This document shows positions 4,252 through 64,000 of a stretch of DNA of 64,000 bases, in pieces. Under the pieces are notes generated by a model. That model worked only from the letters and a program-made list of their open reading frames with translations, searched no databases and was not told the DNA's origin. Source of the stretch: Escherichia phage vB_EcoM_EC001; the sequence record MN445185.1. The stretch is one strand, 5' to 3'. Numbering within the stretch: position 1 is the stretch's first letter; each line of letters begins with the position of its first letter. Both the position numbers and the translations under genes were made by a program.

Positions 4252-4282
4252 AATATCTCAGATATATATTACTTAGGTGAGA
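4252..4282 (+). promoter_or_regulatory. conserved promoter-like element, TATATTAC class
   Basis: …CTCAGATATATATTACTTAGGTGAG… right after stop of 3664..4251; near-identical copy at 62806; core matches phiKZ early-promoter element as I recall it. Confidence 0.45.
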
Positions 4283-4302
4283 GTTAAGAGATTAACTCAA
4301 CT

Positions 4303-4331
4303 GGCTACCCTCGGGTAGCCTATTCTTTTTT
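4303..4331 (+). terminator. hairpin + T-run between promoter-like motif and gene 4357 (terminator or attenuator)
   Basis: GGCTACC-ctcg-GGTAGCC then TATTCTTTTTT. Confidence 0.6.
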
Positions 4332-4356
4332 AAACCAATCGACTGTAGAGCAAAAC

Positions 4357-6095: not shown

Positions 6096-6168
6096 GTGAG
6101 ATGACGACCCATCTCACTTTGGCCCTGCGGTGATTTCCCCAACACTTAGCCGCAGGGTCCTTTTTAAT
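6096..6168 (+). terminator. tandem hairpins, second followed by T-run
   Basis: GTGAGAT…ATCTCAC, then CCCTGCGG-(19-nt loop)-CCGCAGGG followed by TCCTTTTT, which runs into the TTAATCGAC motif. Confidence 0.55.
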
Positions 6169-6181
6169 CGACTATTACTCG
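6164..6181 (+). promoter_or_regulatory. conserved 5'-leader motif TTAATCGAC(C/T)ATTA
   Basis: TTAATCGACTATTACTCG ending ~19 nt before ATG 6196. Confidence 0.35.
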
Positions 6182-17151: not shown

Positions 17152-18531
17152 TTAGGCTTTTGGCTCTGCCGCAGGAACATCCCAAATGGCCTTACGGGCC
17201 AAGACACGATATTCCACGTTATCGAATTCGAAGACGTAGAAGTAAACGTTAGGATCAACGTCGTCTACGAGCTTCACGATATCCAACGGGGTGGAGTGCG
17301 GATGGTACTCTTCGGCTGCAATTAACGCCTGGAAGAACAGATCCAACCACTCGGTGGTTTTCTTCGACATTCTCGCAATATCCGCATTATTAGTGCCGAT
17401 TAATGCGTAGTCAGGAATTGTGTCATGCAGGGTCGTTTTGCGTGAATCGTTTTCAGGGCCAGCGATAACCACGGCGTTCAACGATTTATAGATGGACGGT
17501 AAATCCGTTACATCGGTAGTTGGAATCGAGATCGCTCCACTATTTTTTTCCGTAATGGTTTGAACAGTCCACTCCCCAAATCGGGAGATTGCTTTGACCC
17601 AGAAATCATATGGGAGAATCGGCGAGTATAATGCCGCAACATCTTCCTCATTTGGAATCCCACGAATTGACCAACCGGGAACAATTGTGAACTTGGTGGT
17701 CGTAAAGATTTCTGGGAACACTTTGACACCCAACGCCACAGTAAAACTGGAGTTTGCCAAAATGTAATCACGTAACGCTTGTTTAATCCTGCTCGGGTTA
17801 CGACCCGCGCGTCCGTAGATGATAGCCGACATCGGTATCGGTAAGGTGGAGTCAAAGTCTTCCTGGTCGTGCCAAGTATAGATGTTAGTAATCAGGCTAG
17901 TGTACGGATAACCGTCAGCTAATTCGTTAATCTTATTATGGTGATCCGGAAGGTTGAACCCTTCCATTGCCTTTTCGACTACAGATTTCACAGCCAAGAA
18001 AGTATCAACCGGTAATATCGGCATTTGGACTTCAATTTCAAATCCAGTATAGTCCTGATTGAAATCTTCATCAGCAAACCAGAGAATAATCTGGTTATTT
18101 ACATCAGACGGGTCTTCGACTTTATCTGCTGTGGTTTCAAGTTTCCAACTGACCCAACGTGGGAACCAGTTACTGTTAGTCTGAATCATCGCGCCAGACT
18201 GAACACCGCTGATGACACTATTAAATTGCCCCAACAGCAAACGCTGGAATTCAACTTCGTCGTTTCTTAAGTTGCCCAGGATAGACTGTTGGTAGATCCA
18301 TTGGGAAACAGTAAGAACGTGGTCGCTAAAGACGGCCGGGGTCTTAATAGGCAACTCGTCACGTTTAGAAGTAAAAGCAACCAGTTCCACCTGCAGATTT
18401 TCTTTAGTAAAATACTGCTTGCTTTTAGCGAACGAATATGACAGCTCAGACAACTCACCTACCGGAGCGGTGTTGCCAGGGCCATTATCAATCAGAGCCG
18501 CTATTTGAATAAAGCCTTGTAAATCATACAT
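17152..18531 (-). CDS. hypothetical protein (459 aa)
   Basis: Long minus-strand ORF; GGAGAG SD 9 nt upstream; first gene of a two-gene minus operon. Confidence 0.7.
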   Translation of the reverse strand: MYDLQGFIQIAALIDNGPGNTAPVGELSELSYSFAKSKQYFTKENLQVELVAFTSKRDELPIKTPAVFSDHVLTVSQWIYQQSILGNLRNDEVEFQRLLLGQFNSVISGVQSGAMIQTNSNWFPRWVSWKLETTADKVEDPSDVNNQIILWFADEDFNQDYTGFEIEVQMPILPVDTFLAVKSVVEKAMEGFNLPDHHNKINELADGYPYTSLITNIYTWHDQEDFDSTLPIPMSAIIYGRAGRNPSRIKQALRDYILANSSFTVALGVKVFPEIFTTTKFTIVPGWSIRGIPNEEDVAALYSPILPYDFWVKAISRFGEWTVQTITEKNSGAISIPTTDVTDLPSIYKSLNAVVIAGPENDSRKTTLHDTIPDYALIGTNNADIARMSKKTTEWLDLFFQALIAAEEYHPHSTPLDIVKLVDDVDPNVYFYVFEFDNVEYRVLARKAIWDVPAAEPKA

Positions 18532-23801: not shown

Positions 23802-24209
23802 ATGTTAAAGGTGTATAGCGAGTCATTGATGGACTTGCAAGAGTATCTAAAGCATGTGGAAATTAACGGCAACCGAGGAATGATATACTCCATGGTTGTC
23901 GAGATTTTAATTAAAATCGTGCTTGTTTCATTCCACGTGGCAGAAAATGGCACTGCTGTACCAGGCGATGTTTATAAAGGTGTTATTAAACATCTTAGCG
24001 ACCGCTACAGTTGTTTACGTGAACCGGATATCTTTAATGAGGTGCAACGTGTTGTGTTGCTTATCCTCGACAACCGTGGAGACTTGGCGTTCAAGCTTGC
24101 GCGTGAATTGGCAGACACGTCACAGCACGGTGGACAACTGAAATATAACGTTGTGGATCTCGTAGCGTGCAGATACTGGTATACGCAGCCCGAGTTAAGT
24201 AACTTTTAA
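23802..24209 (+). CDS. hypothetical protein (135 aa)
   Basis: Start moved from track ORF 23721 to ATG 23802, just after upstream stop, G-rich SD. Confidence 0.55.
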   Translation: MLKVYSESLMDLQEYLKHVEINGNRGMIYSMVVEILIKIVLVSFHVAENGTAVPGDVYKGVIKHLSDRYSCLREPDIFNEVQRVVLLILDNRGDLAFKLARELADTSQHGGQLKYNVVDLVACRYWYTQPELSNF

Positions 24210-25298: not shown

Positions 25299-25302
25299 TT
25301 AA

Positions 25303-25337
25303 ACGGACACTCTTCGGGGTGTCCGTAGTTTTATTTT
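25303..25337 (+). terminator. intrinsic terminator
   Basis: ACGGACAC-(tcttcggg)-GTGTCCGT then AGTTTTATTTT, running into the TTAATCGACCATTA motif. Confidence 0.7.
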
Positions 25338-25349
25338 AATCGACCATTA
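25336..25349 (+). promoter_or_regulatory. conserved 5'-leader motif TTAATCGACCATTA
   Basis: Directly after terminator T-run; ends 18 nt before ATG 25367. Confidence 0.35.
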
Positions 25350-25366
25350 ATCTAAAGGAGTATTAA

Positions 25367-26290
25367 ATGGACAGCTTTCTTTTTGATTTGGCAGAATCGG
25401 TAAATGTAGATGTAATCGGTATGCGCGAATCCCCGAGTAATTTCTTAAACGGTCTTACTAAAATCGACGAACGTGTGAAATCCAGAAGTGGAGATCCCGC
25501 CATCATCGAGCAATACGCAATAGCCCATTGTGGCGAGATAGGCCAGCACTTTATACCGATTGAGGCGTTCCTAAAGAACTGCTTCGCCGAAGAATGCACC
25601 GCAGACTTCCTGTCTCTTGCCTACGGCTGGCGATACGGGGGTATCCAAATGGAATTTGATCTTAATATTTTTGAACAAGTTCTACTTGGCGACGTTCTCA
25701 CTGAGATACCACGCAGCTGGATAGACAAGATTCCCGGTTGGGCCGTCTCCTTTTCAGTGTGCTATCGCGCTAAAGATATCGGTATCCAAGAAAAGACTTA
25801 CGTTTTCGGTCGGCGAATGTTTAAAGGGAAAGATTGTTTAACAATGATGATTTTTGGAAAACGTATCGAGGGGGAAACCTTTGAAATCGTGGACGTGGGT
25901 GACGGCTTTGTATCCTTGCGTGTGGCGGAAACTGGTACGCCGGCCAATGAGAAAACGTTACGCATTGTCGGCGCTACCATGTTTACATTCTCACTGATCC
26001 CGCACAACCCTACACCCGTCAAACTGAGACAATTAACTGGAAAGAAACGTATCGCCAATTACCACATTGAACCAAAATCTAAACCGACTGTCCTCTCCAC
26101 CGTAAAAGCACAAAGCGAGTATCTTGAAGAATTTGATACTGATACGGAGAAAAGAACACAAGGTAGCAGATGTGCGCATATGCGTCGTGCACACTGGTGT
26201 ACTTACTGGCTCGGTCCACGTGACGGGAATCGGACAAAGATTTTGAAATGGATACCGCCGACATTTGTCAACGGTTCTAAATGCAAATAA
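25367..26290 (+). CDS. hypothetical protein (307 aa), Cys/His-rich C-terminus
   Basis: AAAGGAG SD preceded by TTAATCGACCATTA motif; C-terminal RCAHMRRAHWC…SKCK could bind metal (speculative). Confidence 0.65.
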   Translation: MDSFLFDLAESVNVDVIGMRESPSNFLNGLTKIDERVKSRSGDPAIIEQYAIAHCGEIGQHFIPIEAFLKNCFAEECTADFLSLAYGWRYGGIQMEFDLNIFEQVLLGDVLTEIPRSWIDKIPGWAVSFSVCYRAKDIGIQEKTYVFGRRMFKGKDCLTMMIFGKRIEGETFEIVDVGDGFVSLRVAETGTPANEKTLRIVGATMFTFSLIPHNPTPVKLRQLTGKKRIANYHIEPKSKPTVLSTVKAQSEYLEEFDTDTEKRTQGSRCAHMRRAHWCTYWLGPRDGNRTKILKWIPPTFVNGSKCK

Positions 26291-26301
26291 AATAAAGCCT
26301 A

Positions 26302-31147: not shown

Positions 31148-31183
31148 TCAAAAAGAACTCAGACAGATATTATCTATCCGAGA
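31148..31183 (+). promoter_or_regulatory. conserved promoter-like element (ATATTATC variant)
   Basis: TCAAAAAGAACTCAGACAGATATTATCTATCCGAG in a divergent intergenic region; shares AAAAAGAACT with 62806 copy. Confidence 0.4.
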
Positions 31184-59564: not shown

Positions 59565-60287
59565 GTGAGCGCCATTGAAACAGCACGTCGTGACGCGACG
59601 AAAATTCATGCAGATTTAGTGGACCAAGGCACGGCCACCATCACCAAAGGGGGATGTTACATTTACATCCCTGTTGGCTTCGTGGCTAAAGAGCTGGCGG
59701 TAATTTCTTCGCAAGTCGAAATCGTCGGCATTTTCGCTATCTCCACTGACCGCAAAACCTACGGGGTATCGAACGTCACGACGTTCATTGAAATTACCCC
59801 GTCGGCGTTTGAGGAAATTGATGTTCAGGGTGTGCCGTATTACGAGTTCCGTTTTGACCCCGGCACGGTGGTGTTCCCCAACCGAATGCTGCAAGTGCTC
59901 TCCTCGCCAGTCTACAACATCGCTTCGTACATCTACGACTTCGGAAACCGGCCTTTCTGGTACACCGCAGTAGATGACGCTGAGCTATTGTCTGACACTA
60001 AGACGTGGAACGGCTTTACGGTCTTTAACGACCAGATCACCGCTGACTGTTATGCTGCCCACACACAGCGTAAGGTTGGCGACCCGCGGACGTATTTCCG
60101 CTACACCCTGAAAAAAGACAGCGATTTGATGAATCGGGTGCAGTTTATTCCGCTGCGTTCAGGTTCATTGAACAAAACTTCCCGGTTGGCCAAGATTGCA
60201 GATGTGGAACTGAAACAGGGTATCCGTTCTGCACTCCAGGTCGATCCGGTACGTGCAGAGCCACTCGAGGATTTGTATATGAGGTAA
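59565..60287 (+). CDS. hypothetical protein (240 aa, GTG start; alt GTG 59559)
   Basis: No in-frame ATG near 5' end; GTG 59565 has better-spaced GAGAGG SD. Confidence 0.6.
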   Translation: MSAIETARRDATKIHADLVDQGTATITKGGCYIYIPVGFVAKELAVISSQVEIVGIFAISTDRKTYGVSNVTTFIEITPSAFEEIDVQGVPYYEFRFDPGTVVFPNRMLQVLSSPVYNIASYIYDFGNRPFWYTAVDDAELLSDTKTWNGFTVFNDQITADCYAAHTQRKVGDPRTYFRYTLKKDSDLMNRVQFIPLRSGSLNKTSRLAKIADVELKQGIRSALQVDPVRAEPLEDLYMR

Positions 60288-60349
60288 CTGAGGTAGGGTT
60301 ATTGTACGTCCCCAATAACCCGCTTCGGTAATAACAACTGGGGAAACCA

Positions 60350-61153
60350 ATGGAAAACTTGTCACTACGTTATAACTGCGTGGCACTCGCTGGGGTCAAT
60401 AAAGGGGCAACGCTAAAGAAAGATGCGGACGGATATTACTACGTCCTGTTAGGTGCATTGAATATTTTCAACTCTGAGAATATTTACTACGCCTATAACG
60501 AGTCAAAACATGTCTTCGAGCGCTCTAACGTTTTCATGCGTAAAGTTTTAGCGGGGAATCTCTTCGGTGAAGAAGACCATCCGCAATACGAACAAGGCAT
60601 GAGCGAAGCCCAGTGGATCGAACGTAACGAATGGATCGAAACGCGTAACGTGTGTATGCACATTCGCGAAGTAGAAGTGAAGCCGACTGACCAGATGTGT
60701 AACGGTCTGCCGGTGATGGAAATCTGGGGTTGGATTAAACCTAACCGTGAACGTGGTCCGCTTCTGGCGGAAGCACTAGAGAACCCACATCAGAACGTGT
60801 GTTTCTCACTGCGTGCTATCGTTCGTGAAGGTCGTCTGGGTACGACAATCGTACGCCGCATCGATAAACTGGTCACCTTTGACTGGGTTATTGAAGATGG
60901 CCTGCAAATCTGTAACAAATACTCTGCGATTCAACGCGGTAGTAAAGTGGCACAGGAATCTACTCGCACTTACGTCGACCGCCCTATCAGTCGTCAAGTG
61001 TTGGAAGACATCCTGTACAATCCGACAACGACCAGCGCTGTTGCCACTGAGTCCCGTCGTGGCGCTCTCCAGCAACTCGCGCAGGAATACCTGCAGCTGG
61101 CTCCGAAAGTGTCCAATCTGCGGGTAATGGGCATGGGTGTAAGGAGCTGGTAA
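60350..61153 (+). CDS. hypothetical protein (267 aa)
   Basis: GGGGA SD. Confidence 0.65.
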   Translation: MENLSLRYNCVALAGVNKGATLKKDADGYYYVLLGALNIFNSENIYYAYNESKHVFERSNVFMRKVLAGNLFGEEDHPQYEQGMSEAQWIERNEWIETRNVCMHIREVEVKPTDQMCNGLPVMEIWGWIKPNRERGPLLAEALENPHQNVCFSLRAIVREGRLGTTIVRRIDKLVTFDWVIEDGLQICNKYSAIQRGSKVAQESTRTYVDRPISRQVLEDILYNPTTTSAVATESRRGALQQLAQEYLQLAPKVSNLRVMGMGVRSW

Positions 61154-61156
61154 AAA

Positions 61157-61786
61157 ATGGCAGAACATATCGACCCGTCATTAGAGCGGTGGTGTGAACG
61201 CCAGATGCCGCACGTCGCCAAAAAGTTGACGTTACGTAAACTGACTGAACAGCCGCTGCATTTAAGCAAGTGTAAGATACCGACGTTTTCGCCGCGTATC
61301 CCACTTTCGTGCGCGCCAGATGAAGACAAGACCGTGCCCAGAATTTGCTGCTCGGTAGATTTAGAGCGAGCGATTAAGGGTGCACGTCACAACTTCTCTG
61401 CAATCGAAATACCCACACGATTGTATCTTTACGGTTTTGATGAGCGTGATGTAGCGCAGCCTTCGGTCAACCTGACGCAGGAACCGAATCGGGCGGGTGA
61501 AGTATGGATTGTACCACACCGCATGTCGAACTGGGATATCAAACCGACTTACCTGGGCGAGATGCGGTTGTCAGAACTTCGCAACGGCGGCCATGTTTTT
61601 GTCTATCACTTAAGTTTCGGACAAGATGTGCGCCTGTCTACCAGTCAACTGCTGAAAGCCGGCGAATTTTATCGACTGATTATCAGCGTCAACTGGGAGC
61701 GCGGTGAAGTTAAGGTCTCGGAGGCGGTCGCCACTGCGCGTACTGCTTTTGATAACGCACTGAACGAATACGTCGTTTCACCGTAG
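61157..61786 (+). CDS. hypothetical protein (209 aa)
   Basis: AAGGAG upstream; 3-nt spacer from previous gene. Confidence 0.6.
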   Translation: MAEHIDPSLERWCERQMPHVAKKLTLRKLTEQPLHLSKCKIPTFSPRIPLSCAPDEDKTVPRICCSVDLERAIKGARHNFSAIEIPTRLYLYGFDERDVAQPSVNLTQEPNRAGEVWIVPHRMSNWDIKPTYLGEMRLSELRNGGHVFVYHLSFGQDVRLSTSQLLKAGEFYRLIISVNWERGEVKVSEAVATARTAFDNALNEYVVSP

Positions 61787-61841
61787 TGCTTAGTTCGTGG
61801 TCTGCAAATCACAACTAAAAACCACTACAGTAGGGGGACGC

Positions 61842-62141
61842 ATGAAGGTCGTTAACATCGCAATACCTCCGACCCTTCGTTGTTTGACGCCGGAAGAACT
61901 GAAAGCGTTAGCGATCTACGCTATCCAAGGAAAGGCTGGTAAAGAAGTGCTTGCCGAAATCTTATCGGAACGTTTTGATACAAAACGCAAGATTAATAAC
62001 ATCATCTCCGGAATCGCGTCGCTAGATATCATGGCACTCTATTGCGACATTAAAGAGGCTGGAGTGACAATCGACTATCGCCGTACTTACTTTCTACTCA
62101 CTGAGCCGTATCGTTCGAATATGGCAATAAAGCAGATGTAA
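61842..62141 (+). CDS. hypothetical protein (99 aa)
   Basis: Start moved from track ORF 61797 (GTG) to ATG 61842 with GGGGGA SD. Confidence 0.55.
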   Translation: MKVVNIAIPPTLRCLTPEELKALAIYAIQGKAGKEVLAEILSERFDTKRKINNIISGIASLDIMALYCDIKEAGVTIDYRRTYFLLTEPYRSNMAIKQM

Positions 62142-62194
62142 TTTTTTACATGACGTTGGTTTCATGTGTTGGGGAACAAAATAAGGACAAGAAG

Positions 62195-62743
62195 ATGTTT
62201 TATCTGGATAGCGATGGCGTTTTTGCACGCTGGCGTAAATACGTTTTATCCACACATTTTCCCGGAATGACGATTAAAGAGTTTAACGCACTACCTGAAC
62301 TCCGTCGCCGTAGTTTGGTTCGTTCGATGTATCAGAACGATCCTGACTTGTTTTACAAACTCGAACCAATTGAGGGTGTAGAGCGAATCCTGGAAACGGT
62401 AGATAGACTTTGCGACAGTTGGGCAATACTCACCTCTGGGTCAGAAGATCACTACGACCACCAATTGGTCGTGGATTCAAAACAACGGTGGTTCATGAAG
62501 CACTTTGGGGTACCAGCTGACAAAGTCATCGTCACCGAAAGTTCAGGGCAGAAGAAAGCTTACGCCTCGCGAGGTAATTTGCTTGTCGACGATTATGGTC
62601 GTAACTGTCGAGAATGGATTTTGCAAGGTGGCGCGGCGATATGGTCGCGAACTGAAGAACCGAACATTGATGGCATTTGCCTCCAGTGTGAAGCGTTCTA
62701 CAATGACCCGATTAGTCACTCGGGGACACTACTGCAAGTCTAA
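62195..62743 (+). CDS. HAD-superfamily phosphatase, possible 5'(3')-nucleotidase (182 aa)
   Basis: Start moved from track ORF 62150 to ATG 62195 (AAGGA SD); HAD motif I YLDSDGVF (DxDG) at N-terminus and C-terminal GNLLVDDYG. Confidence 0.6.
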   Translation: MFYLDSDGVFARWRKYVLSTHFPGMTIKEFNALPELRRRSLVRSMYQNDPDLFYKLEPIEGVERILETVDRLCDSWAILTSGSEDHYDHQLVVDSKQRWFMKHFGVPADKVIVTESSGQKKAYASRGNLLVDDYGRNCREWILQGGAAIWSRTEEPNIDGICLQCEAFYNDPISHSGTLLQV

Positions 62744-62754
62744 GCTCCACTAGG

Positions 62755-62796
62755 CTCATCCTATCTTCGGATACGGGTGAGTCTTTTTATTTTATT
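62755..62796 (+). terminator. probable intrinsic terminator
   Basis: Imperfect hairpin CTCATCCTATC-ttcg-GATACGGGTGAG then TCTTTTTATTTTATT. Confidence 0.55.
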
Positions 62797-62805
62797 AATT
62801 GCATT

Positions 62806-62839
62806 CAAAAAGAACTGAGATATATATTACTTAGGTGAG
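62806..62839 (+). promoter_or_regulatory. conserved promoter-like element, TATATTAC class
   Basis: CAAAAAGAACTGAGATATATATTACTTAGGTGAG, downstream of a terminator and ~50 nt upstream of gene 62890. Confidence 0.45.
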
Positions 62840-62856
62840 CGTTACACGTTAACGCT

Positions 62857-62870
62857 TTAATCGACCATTA
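62857..62870 (+). promoter_or_regulatory. conserved 5'-leader motif TTAATCGACCATTA
   Basis: Ends 19-20 nt before ATG 62890; ~18 nt downstream of TATATTAC element. Confidence 0.35.
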
Positions 62871-62889
62871 CCCAGAAGGAGTATTTACA

Positions 62890-63288
62890 ATGACTAACCA
62901 ACTACGCCAAGACCCGTTTGTTGCCATGATGCTTTGTGCTAAAGCCGAGAGCAACGAAGCCGATTTAATTCGTCTGTTGACTGATGACGAATACCTTATC
63001 GCTGAGCGCGATAAACGTTTAAAAGAACTCTACAAGCCAGAAACCGGTGAATCGCTCGACAATCAAGACGCCTGGAAGTTTCTTATTCTCATTGCTGATG
63101 AAAAGTGGCGAGCAGAAAATCCCATCGTCTGTGATATTACAGACCTACCGTACAAATACGGCGGACTCATCACCAGCGACCTGCATCTTAAAGCGTACTT
63201 TGATGGCGAAGCAATACAAGAGCTGCAAGATGTTCTTATTACAGCAACGAACACTTTGAGACGTTTGCGCGCTGAGCAGCTGATCTGA
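62890..63288 (+). CDS. hypothetical protein (132 aa)
   Basis: Preceded by terminator, TATATTAC motif, TTAATCGACCATTA motif and AAGGAG SD. Confidence 0.55.
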   Translation: MTNQLRQDPFVAMMLCAKAESNEADLIRLLTDDEYLIAERDKRLKELYKPETGESLDNQDAWKFLILIADEKWRAENPIVCDITDLPYKYGGLITSDLHLKAYFDGEAIQELQDVLITATNTLRRLRAEQLI

Positions 63289-63342
63289 TCTCTCAAAAAT
63301 AACGAATCGTACAAATCCTTTGACTGTGTAGGAAGGAATAAA

Positions 63343-63732
63343 ATGAAAATCGCAGAGGGGTTAGTAGATGCGTGCAGAGATCCATTTACGCTATGGGTTC
63401 TTTGTGGCTTGCGCCGAGACGATCGTTTCGGTGAGTTTGTTCGAAATCCAGATGCTTTACTAAGCTTCGTAGAAAGCGAGGAGAAGCGTTTAGAGGAGAT
63501 TAAGGAGGAAAGTAGTACCCTTACACCAGATATGGTGGTTTATAGCCGTATGACGTCACACAGGTGGCGTACGACCCATCGGCTGAAGGGAACCTCAATG
63601 AAGGAATTGATTGAAGGGTTATCAAAGGCGCTTTCGTCTGATAACATTATCTGGCCGGTGATGTATACCAACGAAGACCACTCTGATAACGTGAAGGTTA
63701 CACTGACACGTTGTTATCACACATTCTCGTAG
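63343..63732 (+). CDS. hypothetical protein (129 aa)
   Basis: AGGAAGGA SD. Confidence 0.55.
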   Translation: MKIAEGLVDACRDPFTLWVLCGLRRDDRFGEFVRNPDALLSFVESEEKRLEEIKEESSTLTPDMVVYSRMTSHRWRTTHRLKGTSMKELIEGLSKALSSDNIIWPVMYTNEDHSDNVKVTLTRCYHTFS

Positions 63733-63735
63733 TAG

Positions 63736-63749
63736 TTAATCGACCATTA
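63736..63749 (+). promoter_or_regulatory. conserved 5'-leader motif TTAATCGACCATTA
   Basis: Starts 4 nt after upstream stop; ends 18 nt before ATG 63767. Confidence 0.35.
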
Positions 63750-63766
63750 TCGTAAGGAATATTTAC

Positions 63767-64000
63767 ATGCAGGGCACTGAACTCAACAAACTTTGGGAAA
63801 AACTGGTTCGTCAATTCCGCGACTTCTATCGTTATACCGATAGTGCGCATCGCATGGATCACATCAACTCAGTTAAATCAAATGCAATTCGTATCGCGTA
63901 TATGCTTGGGCAAACCGAACACCTGAAGCTGATACTGATTGCGGTGGCAGCTCATGATATCTTCTCTACCAAAGAAGACCGTGCGTCTCACCACATCAAA
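63767..64000 (+). CDS. HD-domain phosphohydrolase, N-terminal part (gene runs past window end)
   Basis: TTAATCGACCATTA motif + AAGGA SD upstream; HD signature His (…SAHRMDH…) and …AVAAHDIFS…; truncated by window end. Confidence 0.6.
   Translation, partial: MQGTELNKLWEKLVRQFRDFYRYTDSAHRMDHINSVKSNAIRIAYMLGQTEHLKLILIAVAAHDIFSTKEDRASHHIK

What the first reader, a model, noticed from the sequence alone, without database searches (positions are those of the whole stretch)
62195..64000. HAD phosphatase and HD phosphohydrolase genes behind stacked terminator / TATATTAC / TTAATCGACCATTA signals
Region 62755-62889 carries, in order, a terminator hairpin, the TATATTAC-class element, the TTAATCGACCATTA element and an AAGGAG SD; the second element recurs before the HD gene at 63736. 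This is the clearest place to dissect what the two elements do, and the HAD/HD pair may act in nucleotide-pool manipulation or signalling-nucleotide degradation.
Basis: partly seen in the sequence, partly recalled or inferred. Interest (0 to 1): 0.4.

Follow-up and report, generated by a model that had tools for sequence, protein, structure and literature searches.

The report
Jumbo-phage early promoter and leader cassette
The stacked signals are a terminator, an early promoter of the phage's own RNA polymerase, a 5' hairpin and a conserved motif just ahead of the ribosome-binding site, all shared by a whole clade of SPN3US-like giant phages; only that last motif is unexplained.

Summary
The window is an SPN3US-like jumbo phage (Seoulvirus, 98-99% identity). 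The gene layout in the title is wrong. The HAD gene lies upstream of the stack, and two small ORFs lie between the stack and the HD gene.

- **TATATTAC** is the core of a 21-24-nt motif, tttcAGATATATATTACYTAGGTGAG. It occurs 3-7 times per genome in about 13 related jumbo phages. It fits the AT-rich early-promoter type that virion RNA polymerases of phiKZ-like phages use. A sister variant, AGATAGATATTATCT, precedes nvRNAP genes.
- **5' hairpin.** The predicted RNA starts with a hairpin whose sequence varies while its pairing is kept.
- **TTAATCGACCATTA** (core TCGACYAT) sits 4-5 nt before the Shine-Dalgarno sequence of about 10 genes per genome. It tracks the ribosome-binding site, not any one promoter type. 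It is conserved across genera and predicted to be single-stranded. My best reading is an RNA-level element of the translation-initiation region bound by a trans-acting factor. This is inferred, not shown.
- **Third motif.** TTTAC-N15-T[AG]TG resembles phiKZ middle and late promoters and precedes the HAD gene. So HAD and HD are separate transcription units.
- **Proteins.** HAD is an NT5C-type deoxyribonucleotidase. HD is a YpgQ/YedJ-like HD hydrolase.

The parts
62145..62168 (+). Bipartite promoter-like motif TTTAC-N15-TGTG upstream of the HAD gene. Predicted nvRNAP (middle/late-type) promoter, with the start site predicted at G 62168.
   Evidence: In SPN3US the motif occurs 23 times on + and 3 times on -, against a shuffle mean of 2.0 (max 7). 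Spacing peaks sharply at 15 nt. The same peak appears in 435 kb of other clade genomes. This copy is conserved upstream of the HAD gene in the five lineages compared, with a diverged spacer.
62195..62743 (+). HAD-superfamily NT5C-type 5'(3')-deoxyribonucleotidase homologue (SPN3US ACQ60_gp018).
   Evidence: Pfam PF06941 at E = 3e-8, above the cut-off. PHROG 2643, 5'-3' deoxyribonucleotidase. Closest solved chains are cdN/mdN at E about 0.008. Motifs LDSDGV, ILTSG, QKK and VDDYG are read from the translation.
62752..62797 (+). Intrinsic terminator: stem-loop 62752-62784 plus a U tract. It ends the protease-to-HAD transcription unit.
   Evidence: Free energy -18.3 kcal/mol, z = -5.6. A hairpin of different sequence sits at the same place in SPAsTU, Asesino, phiEaH2 and pEa_SNUABM_43.
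62800..62839 (+). Class A early promoter: an A/T-rich upstream stretch, then GATATATATTAC (62819-62830, including TATATTAC at 62823-62830), then the TTAGGTGAG initiation region.
   Evidence: The exact 20-mer GATATATWTTACYTAGGTGA is found in 51 loci, nearly all on about 13 jumbo-phage genomes, at 3-6 copies each. It is invariant in the orthologous alignment. It matches published descriptions of vRNAP early promoters.
62837..62857 (+). 5'-proximal leader hairpin: GAGCGTTA, loop CACGT, TAACGCTT.
   Evidence: Seen in the centroid fold. 32 of 50 class A leaders have a perfect stem of at least 6 bp at this place, against a shuffle mean of 4.9 (max 10), with 28 distinct stem sequences. 32 of 40 leaders have z below -1.5.
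62857..62870 (+). Leader element TTAATCGACCATTA (core TCGACYAT), 5 nt upstream of the SD of the 132-aa ORF.
   Evidence: Located. The core is enriched on the + strand only, and 10 of 21 sites directly precede an SD and a start codon. CGAC.A is invariant across genera. The core is predicted to be accessible.
62876..62881 (+). Shine-Dalgarno sequence AAGGAG, part of the repeated TIR AAGGAGTATTTACAATG.
   Evidence: Read. AAGGAGTAT is one of the most over-represented 9-mers in the SPN3US genome.
62890..63288 (+). 132-aa ORF of unknown function (SPN3US ACQ60_gp017). It is the first gene of the class A operon.
   Evidence: PHROG 27024, unknown function. Homologues in relatives share an N-terminal DPF motif.
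63343..63732 (+). 129-aa ORF of unknown function (SPN3US ACQ60_gp016).
   Evidence: PHROG 23206. Only weak similarity to the 132-aa ORF, E = 0.03. Absent from Asesino, phiEaH2 and ChrisDB-like genomes.
63736..63749 (+). Second copy of the leader element, 4 nt upstream of the SD AAGGAA (63754-63759) of the HD gene. It lies inside the operon, directly after the stop codon of the 129-aa ORF.
   Evidence: (T/C)CGACCATTA is conserved before the HD gene in SPAsTU, Asesino and phiEaH2.
63767..64000 (+). 5' part of the HD-domain phosphohydrolase gene (223 aa in SPN3US, ACQ60_gp015). It runs off the window.
   Evidence: Invariant H28, H63-D64, H111 and D131. Profile hit to 2pq7 at E = 9e-6. Model pLDDT 91.7, with best folds 2pq7, 2pjq, YpgQ, SE1688, YhaM and YedJ.
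4261..4350 (+). Second class A cassette in the window: promoter, hairpin GAGTTAA-GAGA-TTAACTC, a strong terminator-like hairpin, then a degenerate element CAATCGACTGTA.
6164..6177 (+). Leader element copy TTAATCGACTATTA, placed after a hairpin and before an SD and the ATG of a 166-aa ORF.
25336..25349 (+). Leader element copy directly after a terminator hairpin. It heads a 307-aa ORF that is a 1-kb insertion relative to SPN3US.

Best explanation
Region 62745-62889 is a composite terminator, early-promoter and leader cassette of an SPN3US-like jumbo phage, a group that transcribes its genome with its own two multisubunit RNA polymerases.

1. **Terminator.** The hairpin and U tract at 62752-62797 end the unit that finishes with the HAD gene. 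The structure is shown; termination is inferred.
2. **Early promoter.** TATATTAC is the core of tttcAGATATATATTACYTAGGTGAG. This is the 'class A' variant of the clade's early promoter, read by the virion RNA polymerase. The RNA would start about 5-8 nt downstream, inside TTAGGTGAG. This is inferred by analogy with phiKZ, 201phi2-1 and AR9.
3. **5' hairpin.** The first 20-25 nt of the RNA form a hairpin whose 5' arm is the conserved GAG and whose 3' arm co-varies. Conservation of the structure is shown. Its likely role is protection of the 5' end from decay, as with ompA-type 5' stem-loops; that role is inferred.
4. **Leader element.** TTAATCGACCATTA (core TCGACYAT) is a single-stranded element of the translation-initiation region. 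Within this genus it is fixed 4-5 nt upstream of the SD. It marks about 10 cistrons per genome, whether first in an operon or internal, and behind any of three promoter types. It therefore most likely acts on the mRNA. I propose it is the recognition site of a sequence-specific trans-acting factor (translational operator or activator, or a processing nuclease) that co-regulates a small early regulon. This is inferred, and the factor is unknown.
5. **HAD versus HD.** The cassette drives the 132-aa ORF, the 129-aa ORF and the HD hydrolase. The HAD gene is outside it and has its own TTTAC-N15-TGTG promoter-like motif.
For: **Identity of the phage.** The window is 98-99% identical to SPN3US-type genomes.

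**Promoter.**
- The motif lies between genes, points the same way as the genes and often follows a terminator.
- There are 6-7 class A and about 15 class B copies in SPN3US.
- Class B precedes the phiKZ gp68 homologue and genes annotated as RNA polymerase beta subunits, which I take to be nvRNAP.
- The exact 20-mer is confined, bar two small contigs, to about 13 jumbo-phage genomes and is invariant across four genera at the orthologous site.
- The literature describes early promoters of these phages as roughly 10-nt AT-rich motifs centred near -10. One study found six of them, all preceding hypothetical genes.
- Sigma-70-like sites are not enriched: 7 observed against 9.0 expected.

**Hairpin.**
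- 32 of 50 leaders have a perfect stem of at least 6 bp, against 4.9 in shuffles, with 28 different stem sequences.
- Mean z is -2.7.
- Orthologous stems differ on both arms and still pair: AGCGTTA/TAACGCT, AGATTA/TAATCT and AACTTA/TAAGTT.

**Leader element.**
- TCGACYAT occurs 21 times on + and 7 on -, against 7.2 expected. Ten + sites, and no - sites, directly precede an SD, a start codon and an ORF of at least 40 aa.
- Distance to the SD stays within 4-5 nt. Distance to the promoter ranges from 39 to 61 nt.
- The element occurs behind class A promoters, behind a class B promoter (23811), 3 nt after TTAC-N15-TATG sites (SPN3US 57144, phiEaH2 L015), and inside operons such as before HD.
- It is conserved at two orthologous sites across genera while its flanks diverge.
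- The core is predicted to be unpaired: 0.68 against 0.51 with shuffled flanks, in 31 of 35 instances.
- A separate, much more frequent motif already fits the nvRNAP promoter type. The element is therefore not needed as that promoter.
Against: - No transcript 5' ends are mapped for any phage of this clade, so the start site, the polymerase and the timing are all inferred by analogy.
- Several copies sit directly after terminator hairpins with no recognisable promoter in between (window 25336 and 6164; L037, L104, L108). That is where a promoter would be expected.
- The 3' half of the element (YATTA) resembles the ATATTA core of the early promoter.
- In Machinavirus-like relatives the motif (YYGACYATC) abuts the SD instead of lying 4-5 nt away. 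Geometry relative to the ribosome is therefore not universal.
- Nearly all genes are on the + strand, so the strand bias does not separate DNA-level from RNA-level function.
- Any efficient translation-initiation region tends to be accessible, and the 35 instances are not independent.
- No candidate binding protein or nuclease was identified.
Confidence: 0.55

Rival explanations
1. TTAATCGACCATTA is itself a promoter for a second polymerase form, set in tandem behind the early promoter and inside early operons. Selected genes, HD among them, would then stay expressed after early transcription stops, as in the AR9 'continuously expressed' class.
For: - AR9 has tandem early and late promoters, late sub-operons inside early operons, and a continuously expressed gp68 homologue.
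- Here the gp68 homologue carries a class B promoter plus the element.
- Copies directly follow terminators at window 25336 and 6164 and in L037, L104 and L108.
- The 1-kb inserted gene brings only a hairpin, the element and an SD.
- The motif is asymmetric and ends in YA, a plausible -1/+1 pair.
Against: - A different bipartite motif, TTTAC-N15-T[AG]TG, already matches the phiKZ middle and late promoter anatomy. It is twice as frequent and is itself found in tandem with class A and B promoters.
- The element lacks TATG, which phiKZ nvRNAP strictly requires.
- It is never found before structural genes.
- It keeps a fixed distance to the SD rather than to anything upstream.
- In two contexts it lies 3 nt downstream of a TATG start motif, that is, inside the transcript.
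Confidence: 0.2
2. The element is a DNA operator for a phage DNA-binding protein, for example the Cro/C1-type HTH protein whose own gene carries the cassette. The protein would block elongation from early promoters later in infection.
For: - One element-bearing gene (SPN3US 94310) encodes an HTH_3 protein.
- The window copies show a loose dyad, TTAAT-N5-ATTAA (one search reports a reverse match with 3 mismatches).
Against: - The left arm of the dyad is not conserved among copies or genera (TAAT, CAAT, TATT, TACT, TTTT). Only the asymmetric core TCGACYAT(T)A is kept.
- Copies inside operons, far from any promoter, make little sense for an operator.
- The tight link to the SD is left unexplained.
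Confidence: 0.08
3. The repeated cassette persists mainly as a recombination substrate. Like the PeSL cassettes of T4-type phages, it would mediate gain and loss of small accessory genes, and the conserved leader motif would have no regulatory role of its own.
For: - The number of small ORFs between the class A cassette and the HD gene is 0, 1 or 2 in different genera. Both junctions carry the same roughly 35-nt repeat, TCGACYATTA-SD-TATTTAC-ATG.
- The strain-specific 1-kb insertion at 25300-26300 begins with the element.
- PeSLs are described as composite terminator/promoter motifs at indel boundaries.
Against: - Recombination alone does not explain why the 8-nt core is invariant across genera while adjacent bases, hairpin sequences and spacers have diverged.
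- It also does not explain why the core shifts as a block relative to the SD in Machinavirus-like phages.
- This rival can hold alongside a regulatory role.
Confidence: 0.12
4. The TATATTAC motif is a host sigma-70 promoter (-10 box TATATT), not a phage-polymerase promoter.
For: - TATATT differs from TATAAT at one position.
- The upstream region is A/T-rich, like an UP element.
Against: - There is no conserved -35 hexamer, and the sigma-70 scan does not call the site.
- Conservation extends over more than 20 nt, including 9 nt downstream of the putative -10. This is unlike sigma-70 promoters.
- The motif is confined to this phage clade.
- Related phages transcribe independently of host polymerase.
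Confidence: 0.05

Closest known systems
Early (virion RNA polymerase) promoters of phiKZ-related jumbo phages (phiKZ, 201phi2-1, AR9)
   Same: An AT-rich, highly conserved motif of about 10 nt or more. It lies between genes, points the same way as the genes, follows terminators and occurs a few to a few dozen times per genome. It stands in front of small unknown genes and nvRNAP subunit genes.
   Different: The sequence is specific to this clade. There are two sub-variants (TATATTAC-YTAGGTGAG and AGATAGATATTATCT). Conservation runs unusually far downstream into a structured leader. No start site has been mapped here.
PeSL (promoter-early stem-loop) composite cassettes of T4-type phages
   Same: Short composite terminator / early-promoter / stem-loop units, repeated in the genome next to small accessory genes whose number varies between relatives.
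   Different: T4 PeSLs use the host sigma-70 polymerase. No conserved motif adjacent to the SD is described for them. A recombination role is only suggested here, by variable ORF number and one insertion.
Post-transcriptional regulons on T4 early mRNAs (RegA translational repressor, RegB endoribonuclease cutting GGAG in SD sequences). Cited from my own knowledge; PMC3014915 was listed but not read.
   Same: A short sequence in or next to the ribosome-binding site of a subset of early mRNAs would let one factor control many cistrons.
   Different: The motif TCGACYAT lies upstream of the SD, not on the SD or the AUG. No homologue of RegA or RegB was looked for or found. The mechanism is hypothetical.
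5'-terminal stabilising stem-loops of bacterial mRNAs (ompA type). Cited from my own knowledge: Emory, Bouvet and Belasco 1992.
   Same: A hairpin at the extreme 5' end of the transcript, with structure conserved and sequence free.
   Different: The distance from the true 5' end is unknown. Stems are short and AU-rich (-5 to -15 kcal/mol) and are often followed by U runs.
phiKZ middle and late (nvRNAP) promoters: TAC(T) near -22 and TATG at the start site
   Same: The side-finding TTTAC-N15-T[AG]TG, including the copy before the HAD gene, places TAC at -21 to -19 and T-R-T-G at -3 to +1.
   Different: In phiKZ the two features define separate classes and are weak. Here they occur together at a strict spacing. 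The leader element TCGACYAT does not fit this family.
NT5C 5'(3')-deoxyribonucleotidases (cdN/mdN) and YpgQ/YedJ-type HD phosphohydrolases
   Same: HAD matches the Pfam NT5C model and has the four HAD motifs. HD has the H..HD..D residues and an HD fold closest to 2pq7, 2pjq and YpgQ.
   Different: Sequence identity is low (about 15-18% for HD). Substrates are unknown. The two genes are adjacent but lie in different transcription units.

Membership tests
vRNAP early promoter of phiKZ-related jumbo phages | Highly conserved AT-rich motif of about 10 nt, repeated between genes and pointing the same way as the downstream genes | tested here: met
vRNAP early promoter of phiKZ-related jumbo phages | Stands in front of early operons, including genes for nvRNAP subunits | tested here: met
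   Class B stands before the gp68 homologue and before genes annotated as RNA polymerase beta subunits at 17704 and 29014. Class A stands before small unknown genes, as reported for 201phi2-1.
vRNAP early promoter of phiKZ-related jumbo phages | Motif centred near -10 of a mapped primary 5' end; transcription independent of host polymerase and of new protein synthesis | not testable with these tools
   No transcript data for this clade were found.
Intrinsic terminator | G+C-rich stem-loop followed by a U tract, at the end of a gene | tested here: met
   A hairpin is kept at the same site in four relatives with a different sequence.
phiKZ-type nvRNAP promoter (tested for TTAATCGACCATTA) | TATG overlapping the start site, all four bases required | tested here: not met
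   The element contains no T[AG]TG. A separate motif that does is enriched.
phiKZ-type nvRNAP promoter (tested for TTTAC-N15-TGTG at 62145) | TAC near -22 and T-R-T-G at -3 to +1, enriched on the coding strand at a fixed spacing | tested here: met
   Activity itself was not testable.
5'-terminal stabilising stem-loop | Conserved hairpin with free sequence | tested here: met
5'-terminal stabilising stem-loop | Hairpin begins within a few nucleotides of the real 5' end and lengthens mRNA half-life | not testable with these tools
   The start site is not mapped.
Translational operator / TIR-bound regulatory element | Sequence motif at a fixed place in the ribosome-binding region of several cistrons, single-stranded | tested here: met
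Translational operator / TIR-bound regulatory element | A cognate RNA-binding factor and an effect on translation | not testable with these tools
   None.
rRNA-complementary translational enhancer (epsilon type) | Complementarity to 16S rRNA beyond chance | tested here: not met
   Best duplex -8.2 to -8.9 kcal/mol, no better than shuffled motifs.
T4-type PeSL cassette | Composite terminator / early promoter / stem-loop repeated in the genome | tested here: met
T4-type PeSL cassette | Cassettes lie at the boundaries of insertions and deletions between relatives | tested here: inconclusive
   0, 1 or 2 ORFs lie between the repeats in different genera. One insertion starts at the element. No systematic breakpoint survey was done.
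HAD superfamily, NT5C family | Match to the family model above its curated cut-off, and the four HAD motifs | tested here: met
   Motifs read from the translation.
HD-domain phosphohydrolase | Match to the Pfam HD model | tested here: not met
   No hit at E up to 10. One homologue (P0031) carries PF01966.
HD-domain phosphohydrolase | Invariant H...HD...D metal ligands and the all-helical HD fold | tested here: met

The most novel reading that the evidence does not exclude
TCGACYAT is the address label of a previously unrecognised post-transcriptional regulon in nucleus-forming jumbo phages. A phage-encoded (or co-opted host) RNA-binding factor would read this single-stranded tag next to the ribosome-binding site of about 10 early cistrons. 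It would use the tag to time their translation, to destroy them at the early-to-middle switch, or to route these mRNAs out of the early infection vesicle or phage nucleus to ribosomes.
Probability: 0.12. Interest if true: 0.8.

Novelty: new variant of a known kind. Interest (0 to 1): 0.5.

Why it matters
- **A genetic model lacks transcription signals.** SPN3US is the genetic model for phiKZ-like giant phages, yet I found no description of its transcription signals in the held literature. A review states that middle and late promoters of these phages cannot be predicted from sequence.
- **What sequence alone gives here.** It gives a clade-wide early-promoter consensus with two variants, a structured 5' leader, a candidate nvRNAP promoter with strict spacing, and a conserved motif tied to the ribosome-binding site that fits no known class.
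- **What becomes testable.** Together these make the temporal programme directly testable with reporters and amber mutants.
- **Reusable parts.** The signals could serve as orthogonal expression parts.
- **Ordinary part.** The HAD and HD enzymes themselves are ordinary auxiliary nucleotide-metabolism candidates.

Tried and rejected
- **16S rRNA pairing.** Complementarity of the element to E. coli 16S rRNA is no better than for shuffled motifs. The sense-strand resemblance to 16S 551-567 was judged coincidental.
- **Host promoters.** Sigma-70 promoter and simple terminator scans show no enrichment. The simple scan also missed the bulged terminator at 62752.
- **Rfam.** No family matches in 62000-64000.
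- **RNAalifold.** Run on an ungapped MAFFT alignment of 40 leaders, it predicted no pairs because hairpins of different lengths were out of register. I replaced it with per-sequence stem searches and folds.
- **Strict IMG/VR pattern.** TCGACYATTA-N3-6-AAGGAG returned mostly single hits scattered over unrelated contigs, which look like chance. Only SPN3US, phiEaH2 and one uncultivated 246-kb contig had several hits.
- **Literature string searches** for the motifs found nothing relevant. Ceyssens et al. 2014 is not held, so my recollection that phiKZ early promoters contain a similar octamer is not used as evidence.
- **Paralogy** of the 132-aa and 129-aa ORFs is only weakly supported, at E = 0.03.
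- **AR9-type reading** of the element (AACA-N6-TA) was rejected. The conserved bases fall in the part that is free in AR9.
- **RNase E consensus** (RN|WUU) does not fit in register. This was checked by eye.
- **Third motif, first guess.** A spacing of 12-14 showed no enrichment. The true spacing is exactly 15.


Full report
**What the window is.** Window 60000-64000 is 98.3-99.0% identical over its full length to SPN3US-type Salmonella jumbo phages. More distant relatives, at 60-80% identity, are Erwinia jumbo phages. SPN3US is a phiKZ-related phage that carries a virion RNA polymerase (vRNAP) and a non-virion RNA polymerase (nvRNAP). I fetched the whole SPN3US genome and orthologous regions from SPAsTU, Asesino, phiEaH2 and pEa_SNUABM_43.

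**Check of the observation.** All four signals are present in the stated order.
- The terminator is a stem-loop at 62752-62784 followed by a U tract (-18.3 kcal/mol, z = -5.6).
- TATATTAC is at 62823-62830.
- TTAATCGACCATTA is at 62857-62870 and again at 63736-63749.
- AAGGAG is at 62876-62881, and the ATG at 62890.

The 14-mer has three exact copies and one single-mismatch copy in the window. Each sits 4-5 nt before an SD and an ATG. Of the four TATATTAC octamers, only 4265 and 62823 share the long flanking motif.

The gene layout in the title is wrong. HAD (62195-62743) lies upstream of the stack. Behind the stack come a 132-aa ORF, a 129-aa ORF and then HD from 63767.

**Element 1 is an early promoter.**
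- *Two related motifs.* In SPN3US, TATATTAC belongs to tttcAGATATATATTACYTAGGTGAG, which I call class A (six exact copies plus one variant). A sister motif, AGATAGATATTATCTnnGnGA, is class B, with about 15 copies. Nearly all lie between genes on the coding strand, and many follow terminators.
- *Genes served.* Class B precedes the homologue of phiKZ gp68, the sigma-like nvRNAP subunit (PDB 7ogp_B, E = 2e-6). It also precedes genes annotated as RNA polymerase beta subunits. These are genes that the injected polymerase must transcribe.
- *Distribution.* The class A 20-mer occurs in 51 IMG/VR loci. Nearly all are on about 13 jumbo-phage contigs of 107-246 kb, with 3-6 copies each. It is invariant at the orthologous site in four genera.
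- *Literature.* This matches published descriptions: phage-specific, roughly 10-nt AT-rich motifs centred near -10, 28-34 per genome in phiKZ and AR9. In 201phi2-1, six were detected, all preceding hypothetical genes.
- *Host promoters.* Sigma-70-like sites are not enriched.
- *Limit.* The start site, probably inside TTAGGTGAG, is inferred. No transcript data exist for this clade in the held library.

**The leader hairpin.** Directly after GGT, 32 of 50 distinct class A leaders have a perfect stem of at least 6 bp. Shuffles average 4.9 with a maximum of 10, and there are 28 different stem sequences. 32 of 40 leaders fold with z below -1.5. At the orthologous site the stems are AGCGTTA/TAACGCT, AGATTA/TAATCT and AACTTA/TAAGTT. 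The structure is therefore selected, not the sequence. A hairpin at the 5' end is a known mRNA stabiliser; this comes from my own knowledge of the ompA work. That role is inferred here.

**Element 2 is tied to the ribosome-binding site.**
- *Enrichment.* The core TCGACYAT occurs 21 times on the + strand of SPN3US and 7 times on the - strand, against 7.2 expected per strand. Ten + sites, and no - sites, directly precede an SD, a start codon and an ORF of at least 40 aa. In the window the figures are 8 against 2, with four before starts.
- *Promoter context.* Across 505 kb of clade loci I found 35 distinct element-bearing initiation regions. Of these, 21 lie 39-61 nt behind a class A or B promoter and 14 do not. 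Those 14 follow a terminator hairpin or the stop codon of the upstream gene.
- *Other promoter types.* The element also lies 3 nt after TTAC-N15-TATG sites (SPN3US 57144, phiEaH2 L015 and L038) and 8 nt after a class B motif at 23811.
- *Spacing.* Its distance to the SD is constant within a genus. Its distance to any promoter is not.
- *Conservation.* CGAC.A is invariant across genera at the site after HAD, and (T/C)CGACCATTA is kept before HD. Machinavirus-like phages carry YYGACYATC abutting the SD.
- *Accessibility.* The core is predicted to be unpaired more often than with shuffled flanks: 0.68 against 0.51, in 31 of 35 instances, Wilcoxon p = 6e-8. Any good initiation region would tend to show this, and the instances are related to each other.
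- *Negative checks.* It has no special complementarity to 16S rRNA and no Rfam match.
- *Genes marked.* Most are of unknown function. They include a Cro/C1-type HTH protein, the gp68 homologue and HD.

**Why I do not think element 2 is the second promoter.** While testing that rival I found a bipartite motif, TTTAC-N15-T[AG]TG.
- In SPN3US it occurs 23 times on + and 3 times on -, with a shuffle mean of 2.0 and a maximum of 7.
- Counts at neighbouring spacings are 0-3, apart from 7 at spacing 17.
- The same peak at 15 appears in 435 kb of other clade genomes: 34 sense sites against 2-11 at other spacings.
- It places TAC at -21 to -19 and T-R-T-G at -3 to +1. This combines the published phiKZ middle feature (TAC near -22) with the late feature (TATG, with G as the start).
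- It stands before thymidylate kinase, an exoribonuclease, an SMC-like gene and others. It also occurs in tandem with class A and B promoters (72637 with 72685; 94187 with 94239; 92541 with 92571; 109894 with 109923). That is the tandem arrangement AR9 uses for continuous expression.

The phage therefore already has a good candidate for its nvRNAP promoter. Element 2 lacks TRTG and never precedes structural genes. The promoter reading keeps some weight (0.2), mainly because several copies sit directly behind terminators.

**HAD and HD.**
- *HAD family.* HAD matches Pfam NT5C above its cut-off and a PHROG annotated as 5'-3' deoxyribonucleotidase. It has the four HAD motifs. Its closest solved relatives are cdN and mdN.
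- *HAD promoter.* Its own TTTAC-N15-TGTG site (62145-62168) is conserved in five lineages while the spacer diverges.
- *HD family.* HD has no Pfam hit. Its homologues, all from sequences that look like jumbo phages, keep H28, H63-D64, H111 and D131. A profile finds the HD hydrolase 2pq7 (E = 9e-6) and YedJ. A confident model (pLDDT 91.7) is closest to 2pq7, 2pjq, YpgQ, SE1688, YhaM and YedJ.
- *Layout.* The two genes are neighbours in every genome examined. A terminator and a class A promoter always lie between them. In ChrisDB-like phages that promoter drives HD directly.
- *Function.* A two-step route from dNTP to dNMP to deoxynucleoside is conceivable but untested.

**Comparison with known systems.** The promoter is a new member of the jumbo-phage early-promoter kind. 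The whole cassette works like the composite promoter/terminator PeSL units of T4-type phages. The number of small ORFs between two copies of the roughly 35-nt initiation-region repeat is 0, 1 or 2 in different genera. This would fit recombination between the repeats, but I did not survey breakpoints. The SD-linked motif has no described counterpart that I could find. The nearest functional analogies are the RegA and RegB regulons on T4 early mRNAs.

**Verdict.** The promoter-and-leader reading is supported. The pairing of HAD with HD as one unit is not. I rate novelty as a new variant of a known kind and interest at 0.5. The open question worth an experiment is what reads TCGACYAT.

Noticed in passing
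window 7418, 11650, 19594, 27144, 30515, 35836, 62145 (+ strand): Bipartite motif TTTAC-N15-T[AG]TG with a strict 15-nt spacing. It is strongly enriched on the coding strand in SPN3US and, independently, in other genomes of the clade. It is a likely nvRNAP (middle/late-type) promoter consensus, which a review says cannot be predicted from sequence for these phages.
   Followed up: partly
window 25300-26300: A 1-kb insertion relative to SPN3US, shared only with phages JN03 and vB_EcoM_Lh1B. It consists of a terminator hairpin, TTAATCGACCATTA, an SD and a 307-aa ORF (25367-26290; PHROG 6160, unknown function, no Pfam hit).
   Followed up: partly
window 13532, 22624, 31162 (+) and 31178 (-): Class B variant of the early promoter (AGATAGATATTATCT). 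The pair at 31162 and 31178 is back-to-back on opposite strands and overlaps as a near-palindrome.
   Followed up: partly
window 4261-4350: A class A promoter and 5' hairpin are followed at once by a strong terminator-like hairpin (GGCTACCCTCGGGTAGCC plus a T run), before a degenerate element and a weak SD. This could be a short early RNA or an attenuator.
   Followed up: no
window 61793-61812: The single-copy 20-mer GTTCGTGGTCTGCAAATCAC upstream of the 99-aa ORF (61842-62141) is largely conserved (two relatives differ at 1-3 bases) in SPAsTU, Asesino, phiEaH2 and pEa_SNUABM_43. Its function is unknown.
   Followed up: partly
window 62890-63732 and loci L006-L009, L131, L136: The number of small ORFs between the class A cassette and the HD gene is 2 (window, SPN3US, SPAsTU), 1 (Asesino, phiEaH2, pEa_SNUABM_43) or 0 (ChrisDB-like). 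The same roughly 35-nt initiation-region repeat sits at both junctions, which suggests gain or loss by recombination.
   Followed up: partly
L002 23886-25493 (SPN3US): A 535-aa 'hypothetical protein' is the homologue of phiKZ gp68, the sigma-like fifth subunit of nvRNAP (PDB 7ogp_B, E = 2e-6). Its very short leader carries a class B promoter and an element-like AATCGACTATTC.
   Followed up: partly
window 62831-62839 and all class A leaders: The conserved start of the predicted early RNA, (U)AGGUGAG, is complementary to the UCACCU stretch at the 3' end of 16S rRNA, so it resembles an SD. It is usually buried in the 5' hairpin. Whether this matters is unknown.
   Followed up: no
SPN3US genome (L001-L005): TATGAC(C) recurs upstream of several start codons, for example at 64444, 87749, 99613 and 158739. 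Genome-wide, TATGAC is not above the count expected by chance, though it is twice as frequent on the + strand as on the - strand. It may mark the start-site context of late transcripts.
   Followed up: no
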